From: Bacteroidota bacterium
Lineage (GTDB): Bacteria; Bacteroidota; Bacteroidia; JAKFFM01
Length of the DNA: 64,000 nt
Assembly (NCBI GenBank): GCA_036675075.1
Contig: JAKFFM010000014.1
Coordinates: 39,102 to 103,101, forward strand
Reading direction: 5' to 3'
The notes beneath the pieces were generated by a model. That model saw only the letters and a program-made list of their open reading frames with translations. It did not search any database and was not told where the DNA came from. Position numbers and translations under genes: made by a program. Positions 26,110 through 64,000 of this stretch are shown here, piece by piece (positions within the stretch are counted from its first letter, which is position 1; each line of letters opens with the position of its first letter).

Positions 26110-27258
26110 TCACGACCTTGTATAGAATGCATACAACGCTTCTGCAATCCTCAGCTGATCTTCGAAAGTGAGTTCATGATACAGTGGCAGTCGCACCAGG
26201 CGATCGCCAAACTCAGTGGCATTAGGGAGGTGAGATTTCTGCTCGTTAGAAAAATATGGACTGAGGTGCAAAGGCAGGTAATGAAATGCAGCCCTGATTT
26301 TATGATTGTCCAGAAACCTGATAAGTGAAGTTCGTTCATCAAGTGAGCGGCATAAAATATAAAAGATATGACCACTGTTCGATGAGCCTCCGGGTAACTG
26401 AGGCAGCTGAATATACTGTTCATTCCCGAGAGGTTTCAGCAATTCATTATAAGTATTCCATTGGTTTACTCGTTTCTCCTGAATGCTCTGGATCTGTTCA
26501 AGCTGAGCGTACAGGAAGGCCGCGATAATGTCTGAAGGAAGAAAGGAAGAACCAATATCTACCCAGTTGTACTTATCAATTTCCCCTCTCGAAAATGCAG
26601 AGCGGTTTGTTCCTTTCTCCCGAATGATCTCAGCGCGATGGATGAAACGTTCATCATTTATCGCCAGCAAGCCACCTTCACCACAGATCACATTTTTTGT
26701 TTCGTGGAATGAGAACGCAGACATCGCCCCGAAACTACCAACGGGACGCCCCTTATAGGATGATTCAAGAGCAAGCGCAGCGTCTTCAATAACGAAAAGA
26801 TTATGTTCAGACGCTATAGACATGATGGAATCCATATCACAGGCAGCTCCAGCGTAATGAACAGGGACAATTGCTTTTGTGTTCCTAGTGACAAACTTTC
26901 GGACCGAATCAGGATCAATGTTCGGATGATCCCTGAGGCTGTCAGCGAATTTCACTTTCGCTCCCCGCAACAGAAATGCATTCGCTGTAGATACGAACGT
27001 AAACGAAGGCATGATCACTTCATCCCCCGGTTTGATGTCTGCAAGGATGGCACTCATCTCAAGAGCGTCGGTGCATGAAGTTGTCAGCAGAGCCCGCTTG
27101 AATCCATAACGCTTTTCAAAGAAATCATGGCATTGACGGGTGAAATGGCCATCCCCTGAGATCTTTCCATTTAATACCGCCTGTTTGATATATTCCATTT
27201 CATTTCCTGAAAGAAATGGCTTATTAAAAGGAATATATGCAGTGTTTTCTGGAGGCAT
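26110..27258 (-). CDS. DegT/DnrJ/EryC1/StrS-family PLP-dependent sugar aminotransferase
   Basis: LLTTSCTDALEMSAILADIKPGDEVIMPSFTFVSTANAF and the downstream PLP-lysine region. Last (3'-most) gene of the glycan locus. Confidence 0.9.
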   Translation of the reverse strand: MPPENTAYIPFNKPFLSGNEMEYIKQAVLNGKISGDGHFTRQCHDFFEKRYGFKRALLTTSCTDALEMSAILADIKPGDEVIMPSFTFVSTANAFLLRGAKVKFADSLRDHPNIDPDSVRKFVTRNTKAIVPVHYAGAACDMDSIMSIASEHNLFVIEDAALALESSYKGRPVGSFGAMSAFSFHETKNVICGEGGLLAINDERFIHRAEIIREKGTNRSAFSRGEIDKYNWVDIGSSFLPSDIIAAFLYAQLEQIQSIQEKRVNQWNTYNELLKPLGNEQYIQLPQLPGGSSNSGHIFYILCRSLDERTSLIRFLDNHKIRAAFHYLPLHLSPYFSNEQKSHLPNATEFGDRLVRLPLYHELTFEDQLRIAEALYAFYTRS

Positions 27259-27304
27259 TCAGTTCCGTTTTAAATAAATCAGCTTTAATAAACAGGAGAA
27301 TTCC

Positions 27305-28399
27305 TTACCTCCCTGATACCACCGGAGCCAATGCCGGCTTCCTGTCAGGATAATATTTGTCACGAAGTATCAGCATCGGTTTTTCAACTGTTTTATACAG
27401 GAGATAGCTCACCAAACAGGTGATCACAACCAGTATCAGCAATGTCAGGTAATGTGAAACACCATCGAATTTCAGCATATCCATAAATAATATTTTAACC
27501 TCCATATGAACCAGATACAAGGCGTATGAAAGCTTGCTTCCCCATAATACAAAACTATTCAGAGGCTTAAGGTATACGCTCTTCAGGCTGTTCACAGAAT
27601 TCTCGAAATATGGTAATGTGAGCATGATTAAAAAGCTCAAAATGGAGAACGAAAAGGTCCTGGTCCAAATGTAATTGTTGGTGGTATCAACAGGAGTTTT
27701 GATCATATAAATAACTGCGAAATAAACACCAAGCATGAGCACGCTTCCAAGGAATACCGGCAAGGAATTCATCTTATTAAAAAATGATGTGTATTGATAT
27801 TTAATATATGCCAGCAGAACACCAAACAACAGGGTATCCTGGCGCAGCGGAACATTCCCTACGATTCCGGCCCACTGAGTATCAGTGAAATAAACCCATG
27901 AAAATCGAAGAATATTAATTAATATAATAACAGCCGTGATGAATCCGAATATGTTCTTTGGCTTTTTTGAAATGAACTTAATAAAGAGGAACAAGCCAAC
28001 AGGCACACCTAGGTAAAACCACTCATCGATCACTAAGGTCCATGTTTCAGGATAGAAGTCAATGCCATAGAAATGGTTCTGCAGGAAAAAAACATAATAA
28101 AGAATATTCCAGCCAATGGAATGATCTATTGCAAACTTGAAGAAAAGACAGAAGTAATAAAGTGGAAGGATTCTGAACCACCTCCTCATCATAAACCTGT
28201 TCAACGAAGAACCTTCGATCTCAGGTGTCTGAAGAAGATCAGCAAACAATATTTGGCCAATCAGGAAGCCACTGATTACAAAGAGGAATTCAATTGCGAA
28301 ATAACCATAGTTAAATCCTCTAATAAAACCGTAATGAAAAGCGATTACAAGAATAATTGATAAGGTCCTGATAAGATCGATCCCGTAACTACGCTTCAT
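27305..28399 (-). CDS. Acyltransferase family 3 (OafA/YrhL-like integral membrane O-acyltransferase)
   Basis: 10-11 TM helices. N-terminal IDLIRTLSIILVIAFHYG motif. Confidence 0.8.
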   Translation of the reverse strand: MKRSYGIDLIRTLSIILVIAFHYGFIRGFNYGYFAIEFLFVISGFLIGQILFADLLQTPEIEGSSLNRFMMRRWFRILPLYYFCLFFKFAIDHSIGWNILYYVFFLQNHFYGIDFYPETWTLVIDEWFYLGVPVGLFLFIKFISKKPKNIFGFITAVIILINILRFSWVYFTDTQWAGIVGNVPLRQDTLLFGVLLAYIKYQYTSFFNKMNSLPVFLGSVLMLGVYFAVIYMIKTPVDTTNNYIWTRTFSFSILSFLIMLTLPYFENSVNSLKSVYLKPLNSFVLWGSKLSYALYLVHMEVKILFMDMLKFDGVSHYLTLLILVVITCLVSYLLYKTVEKPMLILRDKYYPDRKPALAPVVSGR

Positions 28400-28517
28400 T
28401 TTTCACTTCAAAATTTAATAATACTCAGTTTAATGACAACTGATTATATCCCTTGTGCTTCTTTCATAAATTTAAGTAAAATCCTAAAATCCTGAATGCT
28501 CTAGGCAAACGAAGATT

Positions 28518-29267
28518 TCATGACCACAGGAACTGACCTATTTTCCGCAATGGCTTCATCCAGATTGTATAAAATCTCGGCTTGAGACCATTGATCTCCC
28601 ATGCTAGGCGGTCTTCCCTGTTCGCCCGGATCCTGTTGGCAATGCTGCTGTTGCTCTTACCTCCCACCCTCATCTTGACAAGCACGCGTGGCAGGTATGC
28701 TACCCTGATCCTGAATTTATGAATGAACCTTAACATCAGCTCATAGTCTGCTGCTGATTTCAGCCTGGTATCGAAAGCACCATAATTGATATATGCGCTT
28801 CTCCTTACGAAGAACGCCGGATGAGGAGGCATCCAGCCATTTAAAAACATCCCGTGAGTGTAAGCGCCTGAGCGCCAGGTTCTGAATACAGTAAATTGCT
28901 CATCGTTCCTTACATATTCAAGATCACCATAAACTGCATCGGCTGCTGTTTCAGAAAACTTATCAGTAACGTCTGACAACACTTCATCATCTACATAAAA
29001 ATCATCTGAATTAAGAATCCCCACCACTTCACCAGTGGCAAGCTTTAATCCCTTGTTCAAGGCATCATACATGCCATTGTCTTTTTCACTGATGACTGTG
29101 GTAATACGGTCCCTGTACATATTTATGATCTCAAGTGTACCATCGGTTGACCCTCCATCGATGATGATGTATTCAAGATCCCTGTGATCCTGCATACATA
29201 CAGATTGTAAGGTTTTCCCGATCGTGGCGGAACTATTATAGCTTACCGTGATAATTGAGATCTTCAT
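28518..29267 (-). CDS. Glycosyltransferase family 2
   Basis: KISIITVSYNSSATIGKTLQSV ... EYIIIDGGSTDGT ... DDF (DxD). Confidence 0.85.
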   Translation of the reverse strand: MKISIITVSYNSSATIGKTLQSVCMQDHRDLEYIIIDGGSTDGTLEIINMYRDRITTVISEKDNGMYDALNKGLKLATGEVVGILNSDDFYVDDEVLSDVTDKFSETAADAVYGDLEYVRNDEQFTVFRTWRSGAYTHGMFLNGWMPPHPAFFVRRSAYINYGAFDTRLKSAADYELMLRFIHKFRIRVAYLPRVLVKMRVGGKSNSSIANRIRANREDRLAWEINGLKPRFYTIWMKPLRKIGQFLWS

Positions 29268-29815
29268 GACTCCCCTATCTTCCTGTCTTTAACGAATACC
29301 GCAGGATTCCCACGGTAGATCTTGTAAGGTTCGAGAACTCCTGATGCAGTGGAACCGAGAGCAAGCACCGCATGAGAATGAACGATTGTTCCAGGACCTG
29401 TCACTGACTTTGCACCAAGCCATGCACCATTTTCTATAATGATCGGCCTGACCATCAGATCAAATTCACTTTTTGAATAATCATGATTTCCTGTCAGCAA
29501 CAATGCACCCTGGGAGATACAAACGTGATCCCCAATGGTAACATCTGCAAGGTTATCGATCCACACATGCTCACCTATCCAGCAGTGATCGCCTACTTTT
29601 AGACGCCATGGAAACTTGACGGAAACATAAGGCTTGATGATCACACCCTTTCCGATCTGTGCTCCAAACATTCTCAAAAGGAAAGCCTTATAGCCTGAGC
29701 CAGGAATTGCTGAGTTTAAAAAGACAGCATTTACAAAGTGCCAAAGCACCCTCACCAGGATCGATCTACCTGGCTTATACCAATCATTATTGAACTTGTC
29801 CAGTCTTGTGATCAC
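29264..29815 (-). CDS. Left-handed beta-helix (hexapeptide) acetyltransferase, WcaF-like
   Basis: Hexapeptide repeats. N-terminal WHFVNAVFLNSAIPGSGYKAFLLRMFGAQIGKGV is typical of the colanic-acid WcaF acetyltransferase family. Confidence 0.8.
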   Translation of the reverse strand: MITRLDKFNNDWYKPGRSILVRVLWHFVNAVFLNSAIPGSGYKAFLLRMFGAQIGKGVIIKPYVSVKFPWRLKVGDHCWIGEHVWIDNLADVTIGDHVCISQGALLLTGNHDYSKSEFDLMVRPIIIENGAWLGAKSVTGPGTIVHSHAVLALGSTASGVLEPYKIYRGNPAVFVKDRKIGES

Positions 29816-29816
29816 G

Positions 29817-30941
29817 CTAACTGTAAAGGAATTTGTATGAATTTAACTCATTTTTTTCTTCCATATAGCGTTGGGCGAACGTGAAGGCACTCTTTGACAT
29901 TACATCATACGAAAGTCCGTCAAGCATCAGCATCTCCTCTATTATATACTTAAAATAATCTTCGCGACTCAATGAAATATCATATCCGATGTTCATTTCA
30001 GACAATGACCTCCATGGTGTTCTATCGCTGATGATCACAGGTGTTCCAGCGGCGAATGACTCGATGATAATATGTCCGAAATTTTCTCCAAGCGTAGTCA
30101 TGAAAAGGAAATGCGATGAAGACAAAACCTCCGGAATATCAGCAGGCTTAATGACCCCTTTGTAGATGATCTCGTGCTGCGGCATTTTATCTATCAACTC
30201 CTTGCATCGATCCCAGTATGCTTTATCATGGATTGTCCCATAGATACTGAAAACAACGGTCGATTCGATTTCACTTAACACTTCAAGTGCGTAAAGCAGA
30301 TTTTTCTCAGGGCTTATTCTTGCAACACTGACAAGCTTTAGCTTACCCTTTTCCTTACAGATATGTGCTATTGGCCGGTCATTCAGGTCAACAAGGTTAG
30401 CGGCAACATGTATCACCGCATTTCTGAAAATTTTTCGGATATCCTCTGCTTCATCTTTGTTTGTAGCATGCCATTCTACCTTCTGTGATCCGAACAGGTT
30501 GAACAATGATAGAAAGATCCTTTTTTTGGTTGCCTTAAGCGACAATGCCCCTGGAGCGAGCATACCTCTGGGAGCAATAACAATACGAGCATCATTCATC
30601 CAAAGCCTCGCGATTAAAAAAGGAAGAACAGTGAAGTATAAAGAGAACATGCTGTTGAGGTAAAGAACATCTGGCTTCCGTTCAAGAAGAAGCTTTTTCA
30701 ATGTGCCAAATGACAGCTTCGCAGCTGAAATGTAATGCAGATCTACGTTATCCTTCCTGATCCAGGTATCGGCAGCAATGCCTTCGTAGCCAGTAGTTTC
30801 ATGATAGTCGGTATTTCGTGTGATGACTGACACCCCGGCTTTTGAAGCAAGCTTCCTCACAAGGTTCACACAGGATCTTATGGGACCGCCTGCTTTAAAA
30901 CCTGGCTCATACCAATCTGCCATCACAAGCACTTTCATCAT
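29817..30941 (-). CDS. Glycosyltransferase family 4 (GT-B, Glycos_transf_1)
   Basis: C-terminal EX7E-type region TTLGENFGHIIIESFAAGTPVIISD. Confidence 0.8.
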   Translation of the reverse strand: MMKVLVMADWYEPGFKAGGPIRSCVNLVRKLASKAGVSVITRNTDYHETTGYEGIAADTWIRKDNVDLHYISAAKLSFGTLKKLLLERKPDVLYLNSMFSLYFTVLPFLIARLWMNDARIVIAPRGMLAPGALSLKATKKRIFLSLFNLFGSQKVEWHATNKDEAEDIRKIFRNAVIHVAANLVDLNDRPIAHICKEKGKLKLVSVARISPEKNLLYALEVLSEIESTVVFSIYGTIHDKAYWDRCKELIDKMPQHEIIYKGVIKPADIPEVLSSSHFLFMTTLGENFGHIIIESFAAGTPVIISDRTPWRSLSEMNIGYDISLSREDYFKYIIEEMLMLDGLSYDVMSKSAFTFAQRYMEEKNELNSYKFLYS

Positions 30942-38741: not shown

Positions 38742-38743
38742 AT

Positions 38744-41094: not shown

Positions 41095-41098
41095 ATGA

Positions 41099-41809: not shown

Positions 41810-41830
41810 TTTTATAGGACTGGACGACAG

Positions 41831-52142: not shown

Positions 52143-52196
52143 AGGGCAGGCAGGACTAAATCAATAAACTTAAAAATCTTAAACACAGATGATATA

Positions 52197-54341: not shown

Positions 54342-54439
54342 ACTTTAAATTGTAAAGACCAATATACGAAATTTGGCGAAAGTTCCAGTGCTGTAGCCAC
54401 TGCTGCGATACGGAATGATGCAATTATTCTAACTTTGCA

Positions 54440-54447
54440 ATCTGACT
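54440..54447 (+). promoter_or_regulatory. Putative -7 box TAACTTTG 10 nt upstream of the acyltransferase start (54458)
   Basis: Lies in the divergent intergenic region 54342..54457. Same octamer and spacing as at 5050 and 25051. Confidence 0.4.
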
Positions 54448-54457
54448 CAAGGGTACC

Positions 54458-55525: not shown

Positions 55526-55535
55526 TTGCAGCAGA

Positions 55536-56411: not shown

Positions 56412-56417
56412 GATTGC

Positions 56418-57992: not shown

Positions 57993-57994
57993 CT

Positions 57995-58825
57995 TCAGTA
58001 TCTGAAAACTCCTAACTTTCTTAATACACGAAAAATGAATTTGCCCGCTGTCTCAAATTTCCAGTCATGCAGCACTTTATATTTCTTTTCCAGAAGGTGC
58101 TTTTCCTTAAATAACATCAATGGATCAGGAAAGAACTGATCATAAAACTTTGTATGCTTCCTGTAGATGAGCTGCCTTAAATAAATTTGTTTAGACTCGT
58201 CGATCTGTCGAACCATTGACCCTGACCTGATCCGGTAATAAAAGCAAGTCTCCGGTATTTTGTAAACATTCCCTCCATCTTTCAACAGACCGATCCAGAA
58301 ACTCCAGTCTTCCCATCCATAGATCATTTCCGGGTCGTAGCCCTCCGTTTTCAAATAATCAGACCTTCTGTATAATGCCGTGCAGAAGATCTGGTTTTCA
58401 TAAGCAAAACGCTTCAGGTCGAATTCAGGAAGCTCCCAGATACCAGACATTTCTCCAAACAATTCAGCCTGGCAGTATACAATCTTTGTATCCGGCTGGC
58501 TTATCAGGACTGGCACGGCTTTTTCGAGGTAGTCCTCTGAAATAAGATCATCAGAATCCAGAGGCAGGATGAACTCACCCGATGAATTATTTATTCCAGC
58601 ATTTCTTGCTGCAGATAGCCCTGAGTTTTTTTGAAAGACACATTTAAATCGTGTGTCTCTTTCAATGAATTGATGAGCTACAATTTCCGTGTCATCAGTG
58701 CTTCCATCATTCACGATCACACATTCCCATAACGAATAACGCTGCTTTAAAACAGATTCGAGCGTTTCTGCTAAAAAGCTCCCCTGGTTATAACATGGGA
58801 CGATAACTGACACCAAACCATTCAT
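57995..58825 (-). CDS. Glycosyltransferase family 2
   Basis: VSVIVPCYNQGSFLAETLESVLKQRYSLWECVIVNDGSTDDT ... DSDD. Confidence 0.85.
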   Translation of the reverse strand: MNGLVSVIVPCYNQGSFLAETLESVLKQRYSLWECVIVNDGSTDDTEIVAHQFIERDTRFKCVFQKNSGLSAARNAGINNSSGEFILPLDSDDLISEDYLEKAVPVLISQPDTKIVYCQAELFGEMSGIWELPEFDLKRFAYENQIFCTALYRRSDYLKTEGYDPEMIYGWEDWSFWIGLLKDGGNVYKIPETCFYYRIRSGSMVRQIDESKQIYLRQLIYRKHTKFYDQFFPDPLMLFKEKHLLEKKYKVLHDWKFETAGKFIFRVLRKLGVFRY

Positions 58826-59775
58826 GACATCAGAAAAGTTTTGTATTCGGTTATGGTTACAGCGACAAACATTGATTTCCTTGGAATTTCAAACCTGTGG
58901 GAACGGTTTGTTCTATTGTTTGAAATTACTGCAAATCCAGCATGTACCCCAAGTTCATCCAGAATGCGAATTGTATCTGCATTAAAATGCTTTCCATTTA
59001 CACCATGAGGATATGCAAAAGACCGGATCTTTCTGTTCACGATTAAAGCCACCTCATCGATTGAATCTTTTATCTCCCTCAATTGTCCAGCATAATCAAG
59101 TGTCGAAAGAACCGGATGTGTTTTCGTATGTGCACCTATTGAAACAAAGTTTGATAAAGTGAACTTTCTGAGCTCTGATTCATCCATGAAAAGAGCTGAT
59201 ACTTTCTCTTTGACACCTTCAAAAGACAGACAGGCAGAGATCACTTTAAGCTGTGTAATTTGCAGTGCATTTTCATATGCGGAAGCAAGCTGCACGATCC
59301 TTTCATTTTGAATGGCAAGATCATCCAATGTCAATTCAAGCAGGGATGCAAGTTTATTAGCATATCCGTTTTCCACAGAAATCCGGATAAGATCCCACCA
59401 GGGATAAGCCTCCTTTTTAATAAATCCTGAAGTGATAAAGAAAACCGCGGGAACCTTATATTTTTCCAGTATGGGCAGCGCGTTGATCAGGTTGTCCTTG
59501 TATCCATCATCAAACGTGATCAGAACTGCATTTTCGGGAAATTTATCCTTCTCAAGGCAACGAATAAACTCCTCTTCAGAAAGTGCTTTTTTATGTTCAG
59601 CGACAAAACGAATCTGCTCTTCAAATTGATCAGGAGAAACGATCAGGTTAAAAACATCTCCCTGAAGATCAGCTACGCGATGGTAACATAGCACTTTGGG
59701 AGTGTTTACAGGCCCTGAAGTAAATAAGCTTCTGATTTTTCTGAACAAGGCTTTCATTTCCGCGCGGCGCAACAA
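58822..59775 (-). CDS. Polysaccharide deacetylase (CE4 / NodB-homology domain)
   Basis: LITFDDGYKDNL (motif 1, DD metal/acid) and HTKTHP (His motif). Confidence 0.8.
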   Translation of the reverse strand: MLRRAEMKALFRKIRSLFTSGPVNTPKVLCYHRVADLQGDVFNLIVSPDQFEEQIRFVAEHKKALSEEEFIRCLEKDKFPENAVLITFDDGYKDNLINALPILEKYKVPAVFFITSGFIKKEAYPWWDLIRISVENGYANKLASLLELTLDDLAIQNERIVQLASAYENALQITQLKVISACLSFEGVKEKVSALFMDESELRKFTLSNFVSIGAHTKTHPVLSTLDYAGQLREIKDSIDEVALIVNRKIRSFAYPHGVNGKHFNADTIRILDELGVHAGFAVISNNRTNRSHRFEIPRKSMFVAVTITEYKTFLMS

Positions 59776-60407
59776 ACAGAAACCAGGAAGTTCTTATCAT
59801 AATGATCAAGTTCCTGTTGAGTGATGTCAGATTTTGACATTCCCTGGAGAAAGCAAATGGATGTAATGAGGTTTCCATAAGAGCTGATCTCTGCCGAAGC
59901 AAATCCAGCATCTTTCGCAAGACGTTCAAGACTGTAAGGAGTAAATCTCCAGCAATCGTGCGGCTCCTCGTGATACTTCATAACAAATGGAACCGTAACA
60001 AGAAGATAACCTCCAGGCTTTAAAGCATCATAACAGTTCTTCAGCGCAGTATTCACATCAAAAATGTGCTGTAACACCTGTGTAAGAATGATGCAATCGT
60101 AATGAGAACTTTTAAGAGGAGAACCTCCAGACAAAGACAGATCACCGATGATGTTCGCATCCTTATTCTCCTTATTTATATCCAGAATATCAGATGATGT
60201 CACCTGTTTCCCGAAGCTCTTTGTGTAGATATTATTGAGCAACTCAAGGCAATTTCCCCTGATATGCTGTTCATTCCCCCGAAGGAACTTATCAATGTAA
60301 TAACGATCAACAGGAACTCCTCTGTCAAACCCCCAGTTTGAACTGACAGGTTTAAATGAACGAAGCGTTCCCCAATTCACCTTGTTTTTACTTTTCTTCC
60401 AGAACAT
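59754..60407 (-). CDS. Class I SAM-dependent methyltransferase
   Basis: LKPGGYLLVTVPF motif, small (217 aa) Methyltransf_11/23-like. Confidence 0.75.
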   Translation of the reverse strand: MFWKKSKNKVNWGTLRSFKPVSSNWGFDRGVPVDRYYIDKFLRGNEQHIRGNCLELLNNIYTKSFGKQVTSSDILDINKENKDANIIGDLSLSGGSPLKSSHYDCIILTQVLQHIFDVNTALKNCYDALKPGGYLLVTVPFVMKYHEEPHDCWRFTPYSLERLAKDAGFASAEISSYGNLITSICFLQGMSKSDITQQELDHYDKNFLVSVCCAARK

Positions 60408-60410
60408 ATA

Positions 60411-61706
60411 TTATGGTTTCCAGCGCATTCGCGATTGATGAACTTTTTCTTTCAGTTTACTATTATTCTCAGCCAGGGTATGTTGAATCTCTTCCCTGCG
60501 TGAGAGAAAGGAACGGACAATCTCAGGGAACTGATCAGTCACGGCACTTTCAAGATCGACTTTGAGATCCTGCAGGCCAAACAATTCCGTGAGGCCGTTA
60601 AATTTCTGTGTATAATGTGCGCCTTTATATAAGGGCAGAACAGGTATTCCAAGGGAAGCGGAATAGATGTAAAAATGATACGAAATGCCAAAGCAGATCT
60701 TCATTTTAGACACAAATCCTTTGATCTGTATTGCATCATAATGGCCCTTCACTTTAAAGATCCTGTCACGATTCCTGCAAAGTGAGATTACCTTTTCTAC
60801 ATCAGTACGTTCATCACTAATGCCATAATGAAACGGGATACATAGAACAGAGAGACCTGATTGTTCAATTGCTTCATCAATTATCTCAGCAATCTTCCTG
60901 TAAACTTCAGGATTCTTGAGATCCAGGTAATCGCGAAACTGAAACCCAATGTATTCTTCGGATCCTGACAATCCTTCCTGCCTGAATAGTCTGTCAATTT
61001 CACCTGGAGGAGGACAGGCTAAAGTCAAGGCATCATCACCGGTGGTTTCAACAGGAGTGGTTACACCGATCTTCCGGATGTATTGCTCTGAGATCCTTTC
61101 ACGGGTTGTTATGTCGGTAGCGGCATTCAGCGCTTGAATAAGTAATTGCCTGTCAAGGTCTGTTTTGATAGGTTCAACACTTTGACCTGAGAGGTAAAGT
61201 TTTTTTCCAGCCTTTCCTGCAAGCAGGAAGTTGAAGCACTTTTCATAGAAATACACCTTCCACAACTCATTGAGGTTCGCGCCGCCAACATCGATAATGA
61301 TATCTGATTCGCGAATTGTTCTCACCGCAACACGTACAAATTCCGGAAGGTCAGTTTGACTTTCAATGTCATTGATGTTGTTTACCAGGTTCATTCCTCT
61401 TGCAATGATCCTCTTGTTTTTGATGGTCCATTCATCCGCAAACAATTCACGTAACCAGTCAAGTCTTCCTTTAGAATAAGGAATAAAGTATTTGTTAATA
61501 GACTTGACCATCGGATATTTCACAACATCCTTAAGGTAGCTGCAAGTATCCGGCTCTTCAACGAACACCTTAATTTCAGAACCTGGAAAGAACTTCTCCA
61601 CATCATGAATCACATTAACAAGCATGGCATCATCACCAATGTTGTTAGATCCAACTCCTCCAATAACAAGTACTTTCATCCTTTCATTCATGAATTGTCC
61701 AGTCAT
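60411..61706 (-). CDS. Polysaccharide pyruvyl transferase (CsaB/WcaK family)
   Basis: MKVLVIGGVGSNNIGDDAMLVNV N-terminal signature of PS_pyruv_trans. Confidence 0.8.
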   Translation of the reverse strand: MTGQFMNERMKVLVIGGVGSNNIGDDAMLVNVIHDVEKFFPGSEIKVFVEEPDTCSYLKDVVKYPMVKSINKYFIPYSKGRLDWLRELFADEWTIKNKRIIARGMNLVNNINDIESQTDLPEFVRVAVRTIRESDIIIDVGGANLNELWKVYFYEKCFNFLLAGKAGKKLYLSGQSVEPIKTDLDRQLLIQALNAATDITTRERISEQYIRKIGVTTPVETTGDDALTLACPPPGEIDRLFRQEGLSGSEEYIGFQFRDYLDLKNPEVYRKIAEIIDEAIEQSGLSVLCIPFHYGISDERTDVEKVISLCRNRDRIFKVKGHYDAIQIKGFVSKMKICFGISYHFYIYSASLGIPVLPLYKGAHYTQKFNGLTELFGLQDLKVDLESAVTDQFPEIVRSFLSRREEIQHTLAENNSKLKEKVHQSRMRWKP

Positions 61707-63303
61707 ATGAATATTCCCCGTCGTTCAGAATGCCTTCACAAATTGTATCAAGACCTTTAAACTTTCCCGGGAGGAGGTCACTGCATGAATTAATATTAAG
61801 TGACTTTACAGCCCAGCCGTTCAGTGATAATGGTTCAAATGGAATTGCTTCCTTAAAGAACCTGAAATACATGTATCGTCGTGCGGCTTCTTTATCTGGT
61901 GTAAAGCTTAACTCCCTCTTACCAAGCTTTTCGACATATTCAAAATATTCGTCTTCGGTCTGCGGATCTATGGTAAATCCTTTATTGGAATAATGACCAT
62001 TTGCGCCGGAAGTAAGTACAGGAATATCCTCCAAAGCCATCTCAATAGCCACTGTTGAAATGTGAATCAGCCCAACATCGATCATTGGATACAGGTCAAA
62101 AGGCTTCACATTTTCATCTGGCTTGCAGAAGTAAATATTTGATGGAAGTTGTTCTGGAATGATCGATGACACCCTGTACTTTTCAGGTGTATTTGTTTCC
62201 CTGGCGTTTTCAGCAGGATGAGCCTTAATTATCAGCGAGTATGAACCATGGTTGGAAAAGTATTGAATGTTCTTTGTGATCCATTCGAACATGTCCCTGA
62301 ACACGGTTTTTTCCTTAAACATAAATCCATCCCAGGCGATGTTTGTAAACAGACAGAAAACCACATGGCCTTTCGCTTTTTCATTCCTGATGAAATCAAA
62401 GACATCAGAGCTGCTTCGCTCATCAGAAAAGAGCTTGATCGAATCATTTCTATTGTCTTTTCTTCCAGGAATGTATTTATCCAGGATTTCGTTTTCCTTC
62501 ACCCCAAGATGAACATCTTTATATTTAGGCCACAGTGCCAGGGGAAATGGTGCTGCAGGCTCATTCCTGTAAACTCTCAGGGTATTCGCTCTGTAACTGC
62601 CACCATATACATCAACTGGAATATTCAATTTCCTGCAGAGGTAAAAAACCGGTGACCATGAAATATAGATGCCATGGGAAGTAAACACTTTATCTGGTCT
62701 GGACTTCAGGAGAAGCTGATAAGTTCCTTCTGTAATCAGCAGGCAGGAATAAACATATTCACGGAACTTAGCGACGAACAACTCATTTTCAAATTCAGGC
62801 TGTGGCATTAAAAAATGCCGCACTGTCGAATTCAACGCATACAATCCAACATTGATGTCACGATATTCAAGTGACTTAAGATTTTCTAAAGGCAGGTGTT
62901 CCGCCTTGTACTTTAAATCAGCTTTAATTTCATTCGTCAGGTATTCACTGAGCAGGAGCACATCGAATCCACAATCGCTGTAAAACGCGATCGATTTTTC
63001 AAGATTATCAGCAAAAAAGCTACCGGCTACCTGATTATCCATATCATTCGCTGCAAGAGGAATGTCGCATTGAAAAATAGAAACCTTCCCTCCTCTTAAC
63101 TGCAATGCCCTGGCAATGATCGATTCCCTCCAGGCGTAAAGACCAAGAGGTTCAAACGTATAGACAAGGATCTTTGAATAAGCATTGACTTTATGATCAA
63201 CCGGGTGATTACGAGCTAATATCTTTTGAAGACCTTCCAATACAGGAGCCTCATTTATAGTCGAAGGCGAGACCTTCCTGAACAGCCTTTTAATTATGCT
63301 CAT
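61684..63303 (-). CDS. Large hypothetical protein of the glycan locus (possibly capsule-polysaccharide-biosynthesis KpsC/KpsS-like; unverified)
   Basis: 539 aa, soluble. Lies between the Wzt ABC ATPase and the pyruvyl transferase. No motif confidently recognised. Confidence 0.3.
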   Translation of the reverse strand: MSIIKRLFRKVSPSTINEAPVLEGLQKILARNHPVDHKVNAYSKILVYTFEPLGLYAWRESIIARALQLRGGKVSIFQCDIPLAANDMDNQVAGSFFADNLEKSIAFYSDCGFDVLLLSEYLTNEIKADLKYKAEHLPLENLKSLEYRDINVGLYALNSTVRHFLMPQPEFENELFVAKFREYVYSCLLITEGTYQLLLKSRPDKVFTSHGIYISWSPVFYLCRKLNIPVDVYGGSYRANTLRVYRNEPAAPFPLALWPKYKDVHLGVKENEILDKYIPGRKDNRNDSIKLFSDERSSSDVFDFIRNEKAKGHVVFCLFTNIAWDGFMFKEKTVFRDMFEWITKNIQYFSNHGSYSLIIKAHPAENARETNTPEKYRVSSIIPEQLPSNIYFCKPDENVKPFDLYPMIDVGLIHISTVAIEMALEDIPVLTSGANGHYSNKGFTIDPQTEDEYFEYVEKLGKRELSFTPDKEAARRYMYFRFFKEAIPFEPLSLNGWAVKSLNINSCSDLLPGKFKGLDTICEGILNDGEYSYDWTIHE

Positions 63304-64000
63304 AATTCACTGTTGAATTCATTGAAAAATAGCCTGCAAACCTGGTAGGGTTGAATCCAAGCTCATCCATTCCACGGTTTGAATAAACAGTGACAGGACT
63401 TATATAGTCATCCAGGATATCATAGAATTTAACGCCTTCCTTATCACCAAGCCAGAAATACGTTGGGAAAGTCCCGGGCCTGACAAGTGGATCCGTGATC
63501 TGGAGTCTTATTTTAAATTCAGCCCCTTCCTTTAAAAATGAATCTGGTACTGGATGACGGACAGAAGATACGAGGTTACCCGAAAGTCCTGATTTCAGAC
63601 CAAAGGCGATGTATGCATTCTCAGGAACCTTCTTGCAGATGATATCCGCCTCGATGGTAAATGAATGATTGTATTCGTGCCTGTAATTTTCATTTCCGAA
63701 ATCGTCCAGGATACGGATCTTTTTAAATCTCAGTTCGCCGGATCCTCTTCTGCTTGTTTCATTGTCGATCCCTGTACTTTCATCAAATTCGATCGAGTTG
63801 AGGCCATTGATATAATAGTCGACGGCCTTTTCAGCTGTGCCCTGGAAAACATTCTGGCCGTTAGAGAGCACAATCCCTTTCGTGCATAATGATGATACAG
63901 CCTGCATATTATGGCTGACAAAAAGAACGGTCCTTCCAGTCTCACTGACATCCTTCATCTTTCCAAGGCATTTTTTCTGGAATTCTGAATCACCTACTGC
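63290..64000 (-). CDS. Wzt/TagH-like polysaccharide ABC-transporter ATP-binding protein (partial: the N-terminus lies beyond the window) with a ~165-aa C-terminal extension
   Basis: Reading frame is open to the window edge. The upstream in-frame translation gives ...AVGDSEFQKKCLGKM... (D-loop region), then TGRTVLFVSHNM (H-loop). About 200 aa follow the H-loop, whereas ~35 aa is normal for ABC ATPases, consistent with a Wzt C-terminal glycan-binding domain. Confidence 0.8.
   Translation of the reverse strand, partial: AVGDSEFQKKCLGKMKDVSETGRTVLFVSHNMQAVSSLCTKGIVLSNGQNVFQGTAEKAVDYYINGLNSIEFDESTGIDNETSRRGSGELRFKKIRILDDFGNENYRHEYNHSFTIEADIICKKVPENAYIAFGLKSGLSGNLVSSVRHPVPDSFLKEGAEFKIRLQITDPLVRPGTFPTYFWLGDKEGVKFYDILDDYISPVTVYSNRGMDELGFNPTRFAGYFSMNSTVNYEHN

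What the first reader, a model, noticed from the sequence alone, without database searches (positions are those of the whole stretch)
26110..64000. Glycan locus of 38 kb or more, single-strand, with ABC-transporter (Wzt) hallmarks and a Wzy_C protein
From the GT11 gene (52142) down to the WcaF-like acetyltransferase (29264), about 22 genes overlap or abut with almost no intergenic space. The longest gaps are 54 bp and 21 bp. This implies one very long polycistron, probably extending to DegT at 26110. The locus encodes about 14 glycosyltransferases (8 GT4, 5 GT2, 1 GT11 fucosyltransferase). It also encodes O-acylation, N-acetylation, deacetylation, methylation, pyruvylation and amidation functions. 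A Wzt-like ATPase is at the window edge. In established O-antigen systems, a Wzt-like ATPase together with a methyltransferase indicates an ABC-dependent pathway with a terminal cap. A single Wzy_C protein would then be the ligase rather than a polymerase. The locus is truncated at 64000, so the Wzm permease and initiating transferase should lie beyond the window.
Basis: partly seen in the sequence, partly recalled or inferred. Interest (0 to 1): 0.55.

Follow-up and report, generated by a model that had tools for sequence, protein, structure and literature searches.

The report
Two glycan systems in one locus
This long run of cell-surface sugar genes in an uncultured Bacteroidota bacterium is two adjoining systems: an ordinary ABC-transporter glycan pathway that probably ends its chains with a pseudaminic-acid-type sugar, and a widely conserved, uncharacterised module that combines a Wzy/ligase-type membrane enzyme with two periplasm-facing CotH kinases and a polyphosphate-polymerase-like protein.

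Summary
Window 26110-64000 is a dense, almost entirely minus-strand glycan region. From GT11 to the WcaF-like gene the genes overlap or abut.

A contig identical over 5,359 nt (L001) extends the locus by 9.3 kb.
- Wzt is full length (ABC ATPase plus Wzt_C).
- A Wzm permease exists 8.3 kb upstream of wzt.
- A pseudaminic-acid cassette (PseB, PseG-PseH, PseI) lies between them.

The gene after wzt is a KpsC-like GT-B enzyme. In three other Bacteroidota loci its homologue sits beside a nonulosonate cassette and a pyruvyltransferase. It is the likeliest capping enzyme.

The locus is not one pathway. The Wzy_C gene belongs to a module: GT4, DUF4956, VTC, CotH, Wzy_C, CotH/beta-helix, metallophosphoesterase, GT4, AsnB, GT4 ... 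DegT. Its core is kept in the same order in all 12 other loci examined. None of them has Wzm/Wzt within 10 kb. A conserved Bacteroidota promoter motif precedes the module.

"Wzy_C is the ligase of the ABC pathway" and "one polycistron" are therefore not supported. The module's function is unknown. My best guess is phosphorylation of a glycan on the periplasmic side.

Verdict: ordinary ABC block, noteworthy conserved module.

The parts
63290..64000 (-). 3' part of wzt: the end of the ABC ATPase domain plus the Wzt_C carbohydrate-binding module. The full gene encodes 437 aa and continues beyond the window.
   Evidence: Pfam Wzt_C 36.4 bits against a cutoff of 30.4. The frame is open to base 64000 and shows the ATPase H-loop region. 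L001 8701-10014 carries ABC_tran plus Wzt_C. L001 is 100% identical to window 58642-64000.
61684..63303 (-). 539-aa GT-B glycosyltransferase related to KpsC/KpsS (Capsule_synth family). Candidate CMP-ulosonic-acid (pseudaminic acid) transferase and chain-capping enzyme. It overlaps wzt by 14 nt.
   Evidence: The window protein itself has no Pfam hit. Of 69 homologues, several carry PF05159. Invariant D325 and H362-P363-x-E365. The profile hits KpsC 8fuw/6mgc at E about 4e-4. AlphaFold model pLDDT 91.8. Best TM-score is to KpsC 8fux, 0.54-0.56. In 3 of 3 foreign loci the homologue is flanked by a nonulosonate cassette and a PS_pyruv_trans gene.
60411..61706 (-). Polysaccharide pyruvyl transferase (431 aa)
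   Evidence: Pfam PS_pyruv_trans E 7e-31. Weak CsaB/WcaK similarity. A PS_pyruv_trans gene follows the 539-aa homologue in 3 of 3 foreign loci.
59754..60407 (-). SAM-dependent methyltransferase (217 aa)
   Evidence: Pfam Methyltransf_23/11/12.
58822..59775 (-). Polysaccharide deacetylase (CE4)
   Evidence: Pfam Polysacc_deac_1 E 1.4e-22.
55536..58825 (-). GT2, DUF5672, GT2, GT2: the probable cytoplasmic polymerising transferases of the ABC-dependent block.
   Evidence: Pfam Glycos_transf_2 three times (E 1e-25 to 1e-34) and DUF5672 (E 3e-48). Gaps are 0-6 nt.
54458..55525 (+). Acyl_transf_3 O-acyltransferase on the opposite strand. It breaks the single-strand run.
   Evidence: Pfam E 1.5e-29. 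Eight predicted TM segments.
52197..54341 (-). T9SS-sorted surface protein (SBBP beta-propeller repeats, PKD, Por_Secre_tail). Not a glycan-synthesis gene; possibly a glycoprotein.
   Evidence: Pfam. 116-nt gap upstream and 54-nt gap downstream. Eight D(S/T)(A/I/L/V/M/T) sequons against 3.4 expected. A homologue lies next to the 539-aa GT homologue in L090.
45524..52142 (-). Transferase block: GT11, GT2, GT4, Acyl_transf_3, a weak GT-B-like protein (399 aa), GT4. It is probably lineage-variable.
   Evidence: Pfam. Overlaps of 4-64 nt. Of these six genes only GT4_401 (45524-46729) found a counterpart in foreign module loci, in L087.
42994..45540 (-). Sugar-nucleotide genes: a LegB-type NDP-HexNAc 4,6-dehydratase, a PtmE-like sugar-1-P nucleotidyltransferase and an SDR reductase/epimerase.
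   Evidence: NCBIfam LegB 515.6 bits against a cutoff of 475. The NTP_transferase and the epimerase are below equivalog cutoffs. Pfam.
41831..42997 (-). GT4 (388 aa). First gene of the conserved module neighbourhood.
   Evidence: Pfam. Orthologues at 31-46% identity in eight of the foreign module loci: immediately upstream of DUF4956 in most, about 8 kb upstream of the module in L086 and L088.
41797..41804 (-). TATTTTTG, a match to the Bacteroidota -7 promoter motif TAnnTTTG. Its last base lies 18 nt upstream of the DUF4956 ATG (41779).
   Evidence: It is the only exact intergenic match on this strand in 26-64 kb. The motif lies 24-34 nt upstream of the DUF4956 ATG in 7 of 9 distinct foreign loci. 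The consensus itself is from my own knowledge of Bacteroidetes promoters.
41099..41779 (-). DUF4956 membrane protein: about 4 TM segments plus a soluble C-terminal domain of about 90 aa.
   Evidence: Pfam DUF4956 E 7e-17. Hydropathy. 54-61% identical orthologues in three loci and 31-33% in L086. In S. intermedius SIR_1592 the equivalent protein is described as an MgtC-like TM region plus an ACT domain (PMC12345266).
40423..41094 (-). VTC-domain protein (223 aa, soluble): a triphosphate-tunnel enzyme like a polyphosphate polymerase.
   Evidence: Pfam VTC E 1.5e-25 over the full length. No TM segment. Conserved R[FY]ERK[FY], RIRWYG, ELKY and TKxSKY. Weak hits to yeast Vtc2/Vtc4 structures.
38744..40423 (-). 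CotH-family kinase (559 aa) with an N-terminal signal anchor and a CHB_HEX_C/Fn3_assoc-type domain. The bulk of the protein is predicted to be periplasmic.
   Evidence: Pfam CotH 183 bits. TM at aa 17-35 after a strongly basic N-terminus. More than 680 homologues. Invariant D409...N414...D435/D437. The model matches B. cereus CotH 5jd9/5jda at TM 0.73-0.75, E 6e-13.
37437..38741 (-). Wzy_C-family membrane protein (434 aa, 8 or more TM segments). Could be a polymerase, ligase or oligosaccharyltransferase; not resolved.
   Evidence: Pfam Wzy_C 52.2 bits against a cutoff of 31.7. Hydropathy. 43-50% identical orthologues at the same position in all 12 foreign module loci.
34896..37436 (-). Long CotH paralogue (846 aa): N-terminal signal anchor, CotH domain, C-terminal right-handed beta-helix.
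   Evidence: Pfam CotH 37 bits and Beta_helix 41.6 bits. TM at aa 19-37. Orthologues at 34-42% identity in all foreign loci. It keeps the 'DW' catalytic-loop Asp but differs at the Asn and second-Asp positions.
33836..34909 (-). Membrane-anchored periplasmic metallophosphoesterase (357 aa): signal peptide plus a C-terminal TM anchor.
   Evidence: Pfam Metallophos 22.4 bits against a cutoff of 21.5. Conserved GH[FI][HY]G, LGD, VGNHD, FxFxHR and GSM. The signal peptide is present in four of the five aligned orthologues (the L087 ORF call starts too late to show it) and the C-terminal TM anchor in all five. The family has 139 clusters at 50% identity with E 1e-30 or better.
28518..33839 (-). GT4 (354 aa), AsnB-like amidotransferase (616 aa), GT4 (374 aa), WcaF-family acetyltransferase, GT2.
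   Evidence: Pfam and NCBIfam. GT4_354 is 47-53% and AsnB 49-53% identical to the genes at the same relative position elsewhere. GT4_374 is 41-44% identical in L086, L092 and L118.
26110..28399 (-). Acyl_transf_3 plus a WecE-like NDP-4-amino-4,6-dideoxyhexose aminotransferase (DegT). This is the end of the locus.
   Evidence: NCBIfam dTDP-4-amino-4,6-dideoxygalactose transaminase 546 bits against a cutoff of 375. It is the orthologue of the module DegT in L085, L087 and L088 (50-60% identity). There is a 118-nt gap before Acyl_transf_3.
26030..26080 (.). Bidirectional intrinsic terminator between DegT (-) and the DUF6089 outer-membrane protein gene (+). It marks the left boundary of the locus.
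   Evidence: A hairpin flanked by an A-tract and a U-tract, dG -12.6 kcal/mol, z -3.24; 0 of 200 shuffles fold as well.

Best explanation
The region is a composite surface-glycan super-locus of at least 47 kb. It runs from 26110 to at least 9.3 kb beyond base 64000 and is made of separable units lying head to tail on the minus strand.

**Unit A (beyond 64000 down to 55536): an ABC-transporter-dependent pathway**
- Gene order: wzm, a pseudaminic-acid cassette (PseB, methyltransferase, aldo-keto reductase, SDR, CMP-transferase, PseG-PseH fusion, PseI, formyltransferase-like, PIG-L deacetylase), wzt with a C-terminal carbohydrate-binding module, a KpsC-like GT-B enzyme, a pyruvyltransferase, a methyltransferase, a deacetylase, and three GT2 plus DUF5672.
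- Inferred mechanism: the chain is built on a lipid carrier in the cytoplasm. It is terminated by a CMP-activated pseudaminic-acid derivative added by the KpsC-like enzyme, perhaps further pyruvylated or methylated. Wzm/Wzt then exports it after the Wzt module recognises the capped end. This parallels Klebsiella O12 and Raoultella WbbB, where the cap is beta-Kdo.

**Unit C (41831 down to 26110): a module conserved across environmental Bacteroidota, probably with its own promoter**
- Gene order: GT4, DUF4956, VTC, CotH, Wzy_C, CotH/beta-helix, metallophosphoesterase, GT4, AsnB-like, GT4, WcaF, GT2, acyltransferase, DegT.
- Inferred mechanism: the GT4 enzymes assemble a glycan in the cytoplasm. 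It contains an acylated 4-amino-4,6-dideoxyhexose and possibly an amidated uronic acid. After export, Wzy_C polymerises or ligates it at the periplasmic face.
- The two membrane-anchored, periplasm-facing CotH kinases then phosphorylate it. One of them is fused to a polysaccharide-binding beta-helix. The periplasmic metallophosphoesterase trims phosphate.
- The periplasm has no ATP. I therefore propose that the cytoplasmic VTC-type enzyme together with the DUF4956 membrane protein supplies the phosphoryl donor across the membrane. The donor would be polyphosphate, as in the yeast VTC complex.

**Unit B (52142 down to 42994)**
- It supplies transferases and an NDP-HexNAc 4,6-dehydratase pathway, most likely for the unit C glycan.

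**Shown:** domain identities, folds, predicted topology, gene order and its conservation.
**Inferred:** the cap, the substrate of the kinases, the polyphosphate donor and the final acceptor.
For: **Extension and transporter**
- establish the extension, the full-length Wzt and the Wzm permease.

**Pse cassette**
- PseB scores 531 bits (cutoff 408), PseG-PseH 175 (cutoff 154) and PseI 478 (cutoff 340).

**KpsC-like GT**
- Searches give the family, motifs and fold.
- In 3 of 3 foreign loci it lies beside a nonulosonate cassette and a pyruvyltransferase.

**Separability of the module**
- Five loci reached through protein look-ups and seven metagenome loci keep CotH, Wzy_C, CotH-long, MPE and GT4 in the same order. 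DUF4956 precedes CotH in all, and VTC in all but L086.
- Orthologues are 34-61% identical.
- None has Wzt, Wzm, the 539-aa GT, PseB or PseI within 10 kb.
- None of the three loci containing the 539-aa homologue has the CotH module.

**Promoter**
- A conserved promoter motif lies in front of DUF4956.

**Topology**
- Both CotH proteins have signal anchors. The MPE has a signal peptide and a C-terminal anchor. VTC is soluble. DUF4956 has about 4 TM segments.

**Kinase fold**
- The CotH model matches B. cereus CotH at TM 0.73-0.75.
- The catalytic-loop pattern D409-x4-N414...D435/D437 is invariant.

**Triad elsewhere**
- DUF4956-VTC-CotH recurs in 16 of 69 more distant CotH loci.
- It lies next to Gram-positive pel operons, where mutants in the DUF4956 and CotH genes lower Pel-dependent aggregation (PMC7112168; PMC12345266).
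Against: - In this genome the units are adjacent and on the same strand. Wzm/Wzt is the only exporter seen in 73 kb. No Wzx-like flippase or initiating transferase lies in the window.
- Ten of the eleven module loci scanned for multi-TM ORFs (the window plus ten foreign) have no flippase-like gene within 10 kb. The module must therefore use an exporter encoded elsewhere, and here that could be Wzm/Wzt.
- No cap chemistry has been shown.
- The window's 539-aa protein does not itself reach any Pfam threshold.
- PseC was not seen in the 9.3-kb extension.
- The polyphosphate-donor idea has no direct support. L086 keeps the module but lacks a recognisable VTC gene.
- My mapping of CotH catalytic residues onto B. 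subtilis D228/D251 rests on motif spacing, not on a residue-level structural alignment.
- CotH-long differs from CotH at two of the three catalytic positions.
- Promoter and terminator calls are motif-based only.
Confidence: 0.6

Rival explanations
1. The whole stretch is one ABC-transporter-dependent O-antigen pathway, transcribed essentially as one operon. Its chains are capped (methyl or similar), exported by Wzm/Wzt, and attached to lipid A-core by the single Wzy_C protein acting as the WaaL ligase.
For: - Wzm and Wzt with a CBM are present.
- All genes but one are on one strand, with tiny gaps.
- No Wzx, Wzz or second exporter was found in 73 kb.
- No strong internal terminators were found.
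- A ligase is needed by any O-antigen pathway.
Against: - The Wzy_C gene is embedded in a module that occurs in the same order in 12 other loci without Wzm/Wzt within 10 kb.
- A conserved promoter motif precedes that module.
- A plus-strand gene and a T9SS cargo gene interrupt the run.
- The KpsC-like GT with its Pse cassette occurs elsewhere with a Wzx-type flippase and without the module.
Confidence: 0.15
2. The CotH proteins are protein kinases, not glycan kinases. They regulate or scaffold the assembly machinery (Wzy_C, transferases) by phosphorylating periplasmic or membrane proteins, as was suggested for the pel-linked CotH of streptococci. VTC/DUF4956 would have a signalling or phosphate-homeostasis role.
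For: - The only characterised CotH enzymes are Ser/Thr protein kinases (PMC7821199).
- The Pel papers propose regulation by protein phosphorylation (PMC7112168).
- DUF4956 is described as carrying a ligand-binding ACT-like domain (PMC12345266).
Against: - Both CotH proteins carry carbohydrate-associated domains: CHB_HEX_C/Fn3_assoc and a right-handed beta-helix.
- Both are predicted to face the periplasm.
- A dedicated periplasmic phosphoesterase is co-conserved.
- No obvious Ser-rich substrate protein is encoded in the module.
Confidence: 0.15
3. The conserved module builds a phylum-typical, non-variable glycan used for protein attachment. One option is an anchor for T9SS cargo, analogous to the P. 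gingivalis A-LPS linking saccharide. The other is that Wzy_C is the still-undiscovered oligosaccharyltransferase or outer-glycan ligase of the Bacteroidota general O-glycosylation system.
For: - The module is conserved rather than variable.
- It contains DegT, an AsnB-like amidotransferase, an acetyltransferase and several GT4. This toolkit resembles the Wbp/Vim pathway for 2-N-seryl-3-N-acetylglucuronamide (PMC13086638).
- Por_Secre_tail proteins lie within 10 kb in the window, L085, L086 and L087.
- The OTase and ligase of Bacteroidota O-glycosylation are unknown (PMC12871550).
- PglL-type O-OTases are Wzy_C proteins (my own knowledge).
Against: - The DegT is WecE-like (4-amino-4,6-dideoxyhexose), not WbpE-like.
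- No WbpA/WbpB-type genes were seen.
- T9SS cargo genes are very common in these genomes, so adjacency may be chance.
- The best CotH hits are all environmental MAGs. I found no sign that the module is universal in the phylum, as a general glycosylation enzyme should be.
- No sequence comparison with the P. gingivalis genes was possible.
Confidence: 0.08

Closest known systems
Klebsiella pneumoniae O12 / Raoultella terrigena O-antigen system (WbbB plus Wzm/Wzt-CBM)
   Same: - An ABC-2 permease, and an ATPase with a C-terminal carbohydrate-binding module that admits only terminated chains (PMC11231755).
- The terminator there is a CMP-ulosonic-acid (beta-Kdo) transferase of the KpsC/KpsS-related GT99 type. 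Here a KpsC-like GT-B gene with an invariant HP motif overlaps the end of wzt.
   Different: - The donor here is most likely a pseudaminic-acid derivative, not Kdo.
- The GT is a separate 539-aa protein, not a domain of a multi-GT polymerase with a coiled-coil ruler.
- wzm and wzt are 8.3 kb apart, with the sugar cassette between them.
- The host is a Bacteroidota, not an enterobacterium.
- No cap chemistry has been shown.
E. coli O9a WbdD system (kinase-methyltransferase cap)
   Same: - CBM-gated ABC export.
- A methyltransferase lies in the locus, and kinase-fold proteins lie nearby (PMC3482155, listed).
   Different: - WbdD is a cytoplasmic bifunctional enzyme with a coiled-coil.
- Here the kinase-fold proteins are CotH-type, are predicted to be periplasmic, and belong to a separable module.
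Gram-positive pel accessory cassette cotH / polyphosphate polymerase / DUF4956 (/DUF4832), e.g. S. intermedius SIR_1592-1594
   Same: - The same three families, in the same adjacency: DUF4956, VTC, CotH.
- A cytoplasmic VTC enzyme, a 4-TM DUF4956 protein and an extracytoplasmic CotH.
- Attachment to an exopolysaccharide locus (PMC7112168; PMC12345266).
   Different: - No pel genes and no DUF4832 here.
- The Bacteroidota version adds Wzy_C, a second CotH fused to a beta-helix, a periplasmic metallophosphoesterase, GT4s and an AsnB-like enzyme.
- The 2025 paper reports not finding the triad outside pel loci. Here it is outside them, and so it is in 16 of 69 distant CotH loci.
Yeast VTC complex with luminal polyphosphatases Ppn1/Ppn2
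   Same: - A VTC-type triphosphate-tunnel catalytic domain on the cytoplasmic side.
- A membrane partner.
- A metallophosphoesterase on the far side of the membrane.
- In yeast, synthesis is coupled to translocation (PMC9911596, abstract). The Ppn1/Ppn2 fold is from my own knowledge.
   Different: - The bacterial VTC protein is a stand-alone 223-aa domain without SPX or its own TM helices.
- DUF4956 has no shown relationship to Vtc1-type TM domains.
- No polyphosphate synthesis or export has been shown for any bacterial VTC protein.
Tannerella forsythia protein O-glycan locus with its CMP-Pse cassette and Pse transferase Tanf_01245
   Same: - A Bacteroidota host.
- A nonulosonate transferase gene placed directly after the CMP-Pse genes.
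- An HP motif typical of CMP-sugar GT-B enzymes.
- Methylation and amidation functions in the glycan (PMC5420450).
   Different: - Tanf_01245 is a 445-aa TagB-like enzyme, a different family from the KpsC-like protein here.
- The T. forsythia pathway uses a Wzx flippase, not Wzm/Wzt.

Membership tests
ABC-transporter-dependent (Wzm/Wzt) glycan pathway with CBM-gated export | Wzt ATPase carrying a C-terminal Wzt_C carbohydrate-binding module | tested here: met
   Wzt_C 36.4 bits (cutoff 30.4) on the window part. The 437-aa product on the identical contig has ABC_tran plus Wzt_C.
ABC-transporter-dependent (Wzm/Wzt) glycan pathway with CBM-gated export | ABC-2 type permease (Wzm) encoded with it | tested here: met
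   A 283-aa ABC2_membrane product at the start of L001, 8.3 kb upstream of wzt. Its nearest relatives are named LPS transport permeases.
ABC-transporter-dependent (Wzm/Wzt) glycan pathway with CBM-gated export | Dedicated chain-terminating enzyme that installs the epitope read by the CBM | tested here: inconclusive
   Candidates exist: the KpsC-like GT next to wzt with a Pse cassette, a pyruvyltransferase and a methyltransferase. Neither the terminal residue nor CBM binding can be tested here.
ABC-transporter-dependent (Wzm/Wzt) glycan pathway with CBM-gated export | Polyprenol-phosphate initiating transferase (WecA/WbaP type) | tested here: not met
   No Glycos_transf_4 or Bac_transf domain in any ORF of 100 aa or more in the window, or in the called genes of L001. 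It may lie further upstream or elsewhere in the genome.
KpsC/KpsS-type ulosonic-acid glycosyltransferases (Pfam Capsule_synth; CAZy GT99/GT107 relatives) | Significant match to the family model | tested here: inconclusive
   The window protein has no Pfam hit even at E 0.1. Several homologues carry PF05159. The family profile hits KpsC structures at E about 4e-4 over 54 residues.
KpsC/KpsS-type ulosonic-acid glycosyltransferases (Pfam Capsule_synth; CAZy GT99/GT107 relatives) | GT-B-derived fold closest to KpsC, and a conserved HP motif for CMP binding | tested here: met
   Model pLDDT 91.8. Best TM-score is to KpsC 8fux, 0.54-0.56. H362-P363 and D325 are invariant in 42 sequences.
KpsC/KpsS-type ulosonic-acid glycosyltransferases (Pfam Capsule_synth; CAZy GT99/GT107 relatives) | Use of a CMP-activated 2-keto-3-deoxy sugar acid as donor | not testable with these tools
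   Indirect only. There is a nonulosonate cassette beside the gene in the window and in 3 of 3 foreign loci.
CotH atypical kinases | CotH domain and kinase fold | tested here: met
   CotH (559 aa): 183 bits against a cutoff of 23.8. CotH-long: 37 bits. The model matches B. cereus CotH 5jd9/5jda at E 6e-13, TM 0.73-0.75.
CotH atypical kinases | Catalytic Asp, metal-binding Asn and Asp (B. subtilis D228, D251) | tested here: inconclusive
   D409-x4-N414 and D435/D437 are invariant in 22 sequences, with kinase-like spacing. The mapping to D228/D251 (PMC7821199) rests on spacing only. CotH-long keeps only the first Asp.
CotH atypical kinases | Protein (spore-coat) substrates | not testable with these tools
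   No spore genes here. The accessory domains are carbohydrate-associated.
VTC-type polyphosphate polymerase (triphosphate tunnel metalloenzyme) | VTC catalytic domain with conserved tunnel residues | tested here: met
   Pfam VTC E 1.5e-25, covering profile positions 18-233 of 235. ERK, RIRWYG, ELKY and KxSKY are conserved in 4 orthologues. Assignment of these to tunnel residues is from memory of the Vtc4 structure.
VTC-type polyphosphate polymerase (triphosphate tunnel metalloenzyme) | Polyphosphate synthesis coupled to membrane translocation | not testable with these tools
   Only the adjacency of VTC with the DUF4956 membrane protein is seen, in 10 of 11 non-redundant foreign module loci and in 15 of 69 distant CotH loci.
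Wzy_C family (O-antigen ligase WaaL / polymerase Wzy / O-oligosaccharyltransferase) | Wzy_C domain in a polytopic membrane protein with a large periplasmic loop | tested here: met
   52.2 bits against a cutoff of 31.7. 8 or more TM segments and a loop of about 90 aa containing GSGR...GRGFG...HN.
Wzy_C family (O-antigen ligase WaaL / polymerase Wzy / O-oligosaccharyltransferase) | Assignment to ligase rather than polymerase or OTase | not testable with these tools
   No NCBIfam or PDB sequence match. Context argues for a role tied to the CotH module rather than to Wzm/Wzt.
pel-associated cotH/PPP/DUF4956 accessory cassette | Contiguity with pelDEADAFG and presence of DUF4832 | tested here: not met
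   No Pel-type or DUF4832 domains in the window or in the foreign module loci. Only the three-gene core is shared.

The most novel reading that the evidence does not exclude
The conserved module is a machine for phosphorylating (or polyphosphorylating) a glycan outside the cytoplasm. A cytoplasmic VTC-type polymerase makes polyphosphate from ATP and threads it through DUF4956 to the periplasm. There, membrane-anchored CotH kinases use it as the phosphoryl donor on a Wzy_C-handled polysaccharide, and a dedicated metallophosphoesterase edits the product. This would explain how an extracytoplasmic kinase can work where there is no ATP. The same logic would apply to the pel-linked triad of Gram-positive bacteria.
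Probability: 0.2. Interest if true: 0.85.

Novelty: new variant of a known kind. Interest (0 to 1): 0.5.

Why it matters
**The ABC-transporter block**
- It is a further example of a known strategy: capped chains read by a Wzt module.
- It would extend that strategy to Bacteroidota and to a nonulosonic-acid cap added by a KpsC-like enzyme.

**The conserved module**
- Hundreds of environmental Bacteroidota keep a fixed arrangement of a Wzy/ligase-type enzyme, two periplasm-facing CotH kinases, a periplasmic phosphoesterase and a polyphosphate-polymerase-like protein with a membrane partner.
- I found no published description of this arrangement.
- The three-gene core (DUF4956, VTC, CotH) has so far been discussed only as an unexplained accessory of Gram-positive pel operons.
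- Seeing it in a quite different glycan context gives a testable general idea: extracytoplasmic phosphorylation of polysaccharides, with a phosphoryl donor supplied across the membrane.

**A caution for annotation**
- A lone Wzy_C gene next to wzm/wzt should not be called the ligase by default.

Tried and rejected
**Extending the sequence further**
- The one genome-contig scan, seeded with the PseB-like protein, found only relatives at 74% identity or less. The best were Saprospiraceae and Aureispira. The source genome is not among the representatives.
- A homologue search with the partial Wzm did not return the exact protein, so the remaining 6.5 kb of the Logan contig could not be fetched.
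- An exact 30-mer from the wzm/pseB junction had no match in metagenome contigs.
- The IMPDH look-up found nothing, and the cluster look-up gave no names.
- The organism is therefore only placed as Bacteroidota, tentatively near Saprospiraceae.

**Scans that gave nothing useful**
- Sigma-70 promoter and terminator scans gave no more sites than shuffled sequence. They are not suited to Bacteroidota.
- PDB sequence searches with CotH (single sequence), Wzy_C and the phosphoesterase found nothing. The CotH family profile matched only a beta-hexosaminidase accessory domain.
- NCBIfam had no model for any of the six module proteins tested.
- Rfam found nothing in the window.

**Ideas considered and set aside**
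- Wzt as a stand-alone CBM protein. The ORF list suggested a 222-aa ORF, but the frame is open to the window edge.
- The 539-aa protein as a WbdD-like ruler or terminator. It has no coiled-coil or kinase domain; it is a GT-B enzyme.
- The PS_pyruv_trans genes that follow the 539-aa homologues elsewhere as close orthologues of the window gene. They belong to the same Pfam family but are not close in sequence.
- The tRNA-Met call at 19087-19174 as real. It lies inside the IMPDH ORF.

Full report

Largely, yes. The ORF list and four Pfam scans show that 26110-64000 is filled with glycan genes on the minus strand.

From GT11 (51258-52142) to the WcaF-family acetyltransferase (29264-29815) there are 20 genes. 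They overlap by 1-64 nt or are separated by at most 4 nt, with one 21-nt gap. The 54-nt gap lies just upstream of GT11.

Confirmed domains:
- 5 GT2 and 1 GT11
- three minus-strand Acyl_transf_3 genes
- Polysacc_deac_1, a methyltransferase and PS_pyruv_trans
- an AsnB-like amidotransferase
- a WcaF-family acetyltransferase (226 bits, cutoff 192)
- DegT and one Wzy_C

- Only 5 solid GT4 plus one weak GT4, not 8.
- One Acyl_transf_3 gene (54458-55525) is on the plus strand.
- A T9SS-sorted SBBP/PKD surface protein gene (52197-54341) sits inside the run.
- A 539-aa protein with no Pfam hit (61684-63303) turns out to be a further glycosyltransferase.

The left end of the locus is a bidirectional terminator at 26030-26080 (dG -12.6 kcal/mol, z -3.2). 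Everything to the left of it is housekeeping.

**2. Beyond the window**

The ORF at the edge is open to base 64000 and starts within an ABC ATPase domain.

A look-up of the neighbouring 539-aa protein returned Logan contig L001. It is 100% identical to window 58642-64000 over 5,359 nt and adds 9.3 kb.

On L001, Wzt is 437 aa with ABC_tran plus Wzt_C. A 283-aa ABC2_membrane protein (Wzm) lies 8.3 kb upstream of it.

Between the two lie nine genes. NCBIfam scores above the curated cutoffs for:
- PseB: 531 bits against 408
- a PseG-PseH fusion: 175 against 154
- PseI: 478 against 340

The cassette also holds a CMP-transferase, an aldo-keto reductase, an SDR, a methyltransferase, a formyltransferase-like protein and a PIG-L deacetylase. 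This is a pseudaminic-acid pathway with extra tailoring genes. PseC was not seen.

The predicted initiating transferase was not found in the 73 kb available.

**3. The gene after wzt**

The 539-aa protein overlaps wzt by 14 nt.
- It has 69 homologues, and several of them carry Pfam Capsule_synth, the KpsC/KpsS family.
- D325 and H362-P363-x-E365 are invariant in 42 sequences.
- The family profile hits KpsC crystal structures at E about 4e-4.
- A confident model (pLDDT 91.8) is GT-B. Its best TM-score is to KpsC, 0.54-0.56.

In three other Bacteroidota loci (L089, L090, L091) the homologue lies next to a nonulosonate cassette and is directly followed by a PS_pyruv_trans gene. Two of those loci have a Wzx-type flippase instead of Wzm/Wzt.

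The enzyme is thus best read as a CMP-nonulosonate transferase. In Klebsiella O12 and Raoultella, a related beta-Kdo transferase terminates the chain, and the Wzt module reads that cap (PMC11231755; PMC9587256, listed). The analogous role is the most economical reading here, but it is inferred.

**4. The Wzy_C gene belongs to something else**

Window 41831-26110 contains, in order: GT4, DUF4956, VTC, CotH, Wzy_C, CotH plus beta-helix, a metallophosphoesterase, GT4, an AsnB-like enzyme, GT4, WcaF, GT2, an acyltransferase and DegT.

The CotH protein has more than 680 homologues. The closest are about 575-590 aa and come from Bacteroidota MAGs.

Gene neighbourhoods came from two sources:
- five homologues at 34-43% identity
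- seven further metagenome loci with full flanks

All twelve (eleven non-redundant) keep DUF4956, CotH, Wzy_C, CotH-long, a protein of about 350 aa and GT4 in the same order. VTC is present in all but L086. Two loci have one or two extra genes between Wzy_C and CotH-long (L086, L088). In most loci an epimerase, DegT, AsnB and a further GT4 follow.

Orthologues are 34-61% identical. The window DegT at 26110 is the module's DegT (50-60% identity).

None of these loci has Wzt, Wzm, the 539-aa GT, PseB or PseI within 10 kb. None of the three loci with the 539-aa homologue has the module.

A TAnnTTTG motif lies 18-25 nt upstream of the DUF4956 ATG in the window (41797-41804). This motif is the Bacteroidota -7 promoter box, from my own knowledge. 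It recurs at the same place in 7 of 9 distinct foreign loci. On this strand it occurs only 8 times in 38 kb.

The module is therefore a separable unit that probably has its own promoter.

**5. What the module proteins look like**

| Protein | Predicted location and features |
|---|---|
| CotH (559 aa) | basic N-terminus, then a single TM helix; bulk periplasmic |
| CotH-long (846 aa) | same arrangement; bulk periplasmic |
| Phosphoesterase (357 aa) | signal peptide in four of five aligned orthologues, C-terminal TM anchor with a KR tail in all five |
| VTC (223 aa) | soluble, cytoplasmic |
| DUF4956 | about four TM segments plus a soluble C-terminal domain |

- The CotH model matches B. cereus CotH kinase (E 6e-13, TM 0.73-0.75).
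- A kinase-like D409-x4-N414...D435/D437 pattern is invariant in CotH.
- CotH-long keeps the first Asp only. It ends in a right-handed beta-helix, a typical polysaccharide-binding or polysaccharide-modifying fold.
- The phosphoesterase keeps the GD, GNHD and H motifs. Its family has 139 clusters at 50% identity with E 1e-30 or better.
- VTC matches the Pfam model over its full length (E 1.5e-25), and the motifs I assign to the triphosphate tunnel are conserved.

**6. The middle block**

Window 52142-42994 encodes GT11, GT2, GT4 enzymes, an acyltransferase, a LegB-type NDP-HexNAc 4,6-dehydratase (515.6 bits, cutoff 475), a PtmE-like nucleotidyltransferase and an SDR.

Together with the WecE-like DegT (546 bits, cutoff 375), this points to an acylated 4-amino-4,6-dideoxy-hexose. 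In foreign loci the region upstream of the module also holds GTs and an acyltransferase, but different ones. I therefore regard this block as the lineage-specific part that feeds the module.

**7. How it most likely works**

- **Unit A.** Assembly is cytoplasmic, by the GT2 enzymes. The KpsC-like enzyme caps the chain with a tailored pseudaminic acid, perhaps with pyruvate or methyl added. Wzm/Wzt then exports the chain after the CBM recognises the cap.
- **Unit C.** The GT4 enzymes assemble the glycan. An exporter not encoded in the module moves it out. Only one of the eleven loci scanned for multi-TM ORFs has a flippase-like ORF. Wzy_C then handles the glycan at the periplasmic face, and the CotH enzymes phosphorylate it.

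The periplasm lacks ATP. A cytoplasmic VTC enzyme and a membrane protein are tightly co-conserved with the CotH proteins, in this module, in 16 of 69 more distant CotH loci and next to Gram-positive pel operons. I therefore propose that VTC/DUF4956 delivers the phosphoryl donor, polyphosphate, across the membrane. This parallels the yeast VTC complex with its luminal metallophosphatases (PMC9911596; the Ppn1/Ppn2 part is my own knowledge). This last step is a hypothesis, at a probability of about 0.2.

**8. Comparison with known systems**

- Unit A meets the defining sequence features of a CBM-gated Wzm/Wzt pathway. The cap and the initiating transferase remain open.
- The DUF4956-VTC-CotH triad is known only as a pel accessory of unknown function. 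In S. intermedius, mutants in the DUF4956 and CotH genes lower Pel-dependent aggregation, and the authors report not finding the triad outside pel loci (PMC12345266).
- The Bacteroidota module shares that core. It fails the pel membership test, since it has no pel genes and no DUF4832. It adds Wzy_C, CotH-long and the phosphoesterase.
- Two further readings remain low-probability leads. One is an anchor glycan for T9SS cargo, like the P. gingivalis A-LS linker (PMC13086638). The other is that Wzy_C is the missing Bacteroidota O-glycosylation transferase or ligase (PMC12871550).

**9. Variation between strains**

Three Logan contigs from three sequencing runs are collinear with the window and 98.8-99.9% identical over up to 18.8 kb, covering window 30436-50423. 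In this small sample there is no sign of a serotype-variable island in that part.

**10. Verdict**

The finding is a real, large glycan locus. The ABC-transporter reading of its right-hand part is sound and ordinary. The left-hand part is a distinct, conserved and undescribed module. "Single pathway, single operon, Wzy_C as its ligase" is not supported. Interest is moderate (0.5). It rests mainly on the module and on the testable idea of extracytoplasmic glycan phosphorylation.

Noticed in passing
window 52197-54341 (-): A T9SS-sorted SBBP/PKD protein sits inside the glycan locus. It has 8 Bacteroidota O-glycosylation sequons, D(S/T)(A/I/L/V/M/T), against 3.4 expected. A 28%-identical Por_Secre_tail protein lies directly beside the 539-aa GT homologue in L090 (6950-9898). 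It may be a glycoprotein substrate of the neighbouring pathway.
   Followed up: partly
L085 73-5001; L086 2220-8117: A recurring gene set lies next to the CotH module in two distant loci: a Por_Secre_tail protein, an AhpC/TSA thioredoxin-like protein of 450-460 aa, and three proteins of about 255-265 aa with no Pfam hit. L086 also has a sulfotransferase. The window has no such set.
   Followed up: no
window 15224-17896 (-): Three genes: a HAD phosphatase (KdsC-like), a DAHP_synth_1 protein (KdsA-like), and an unusual fusion. The fusion joins a ribulose-phosphate 3-epimerase domain to a CBS / KpsF-like C-terminal region, at the place where an arabinose-5-phosphate isomerase would be expected.
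   Followed up: no
window 43845-45540 (-) versus L001 433-8722: The locus mixes a Leg-type front end with a Pse-type cassette. The front end is a LegB-type dehydratase (above the curated cutoff) with a PtmE-like nucleotidyltransferase. The Pse cassette (PseB, PseG-H, PseI) lies near wzt. PseC was not seen in the Pse cassette.
   Followed up: partly
L101-L171 (e.g. L102 7116-8700, L111 6915-8400): In 16 of 69 more distant CotH loci (28-36% identity to the window CotH), DUF4956 and VTC genes lie on the same strand within a few kb upstream of CotH. These loci have no Wzy_C, CotH-long or phosphoesterase. The three-gene cassette is therefore much more widespread than the pel-linked cases in the literature.
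   Followed up: partly
L086 9302-9973: This otherwise complete module has a divergent DUF4956 (31-33% identity) and no recognisable VTC gene. That is a natural exception and bears on the polyphosphate-donor idea.
   Followed up: no
window 19087-19174 (-): ARAGORN calls an 88-nt tRNA-Met inside the IMPDH coding sequence. It is almost certainly a false positive.
   Followed up: no
window 37382-37436 and 41780-41809 (-): The mechanical ORF starts of CotH-long and DUF4956 are probably too far upstream. Independent gene calls on identical Logan contigs give 828 aa instead of 846 and 226 aa instead of 236. That leaves real gaps of 54 nt and 51 nt.
   Followed up: partly
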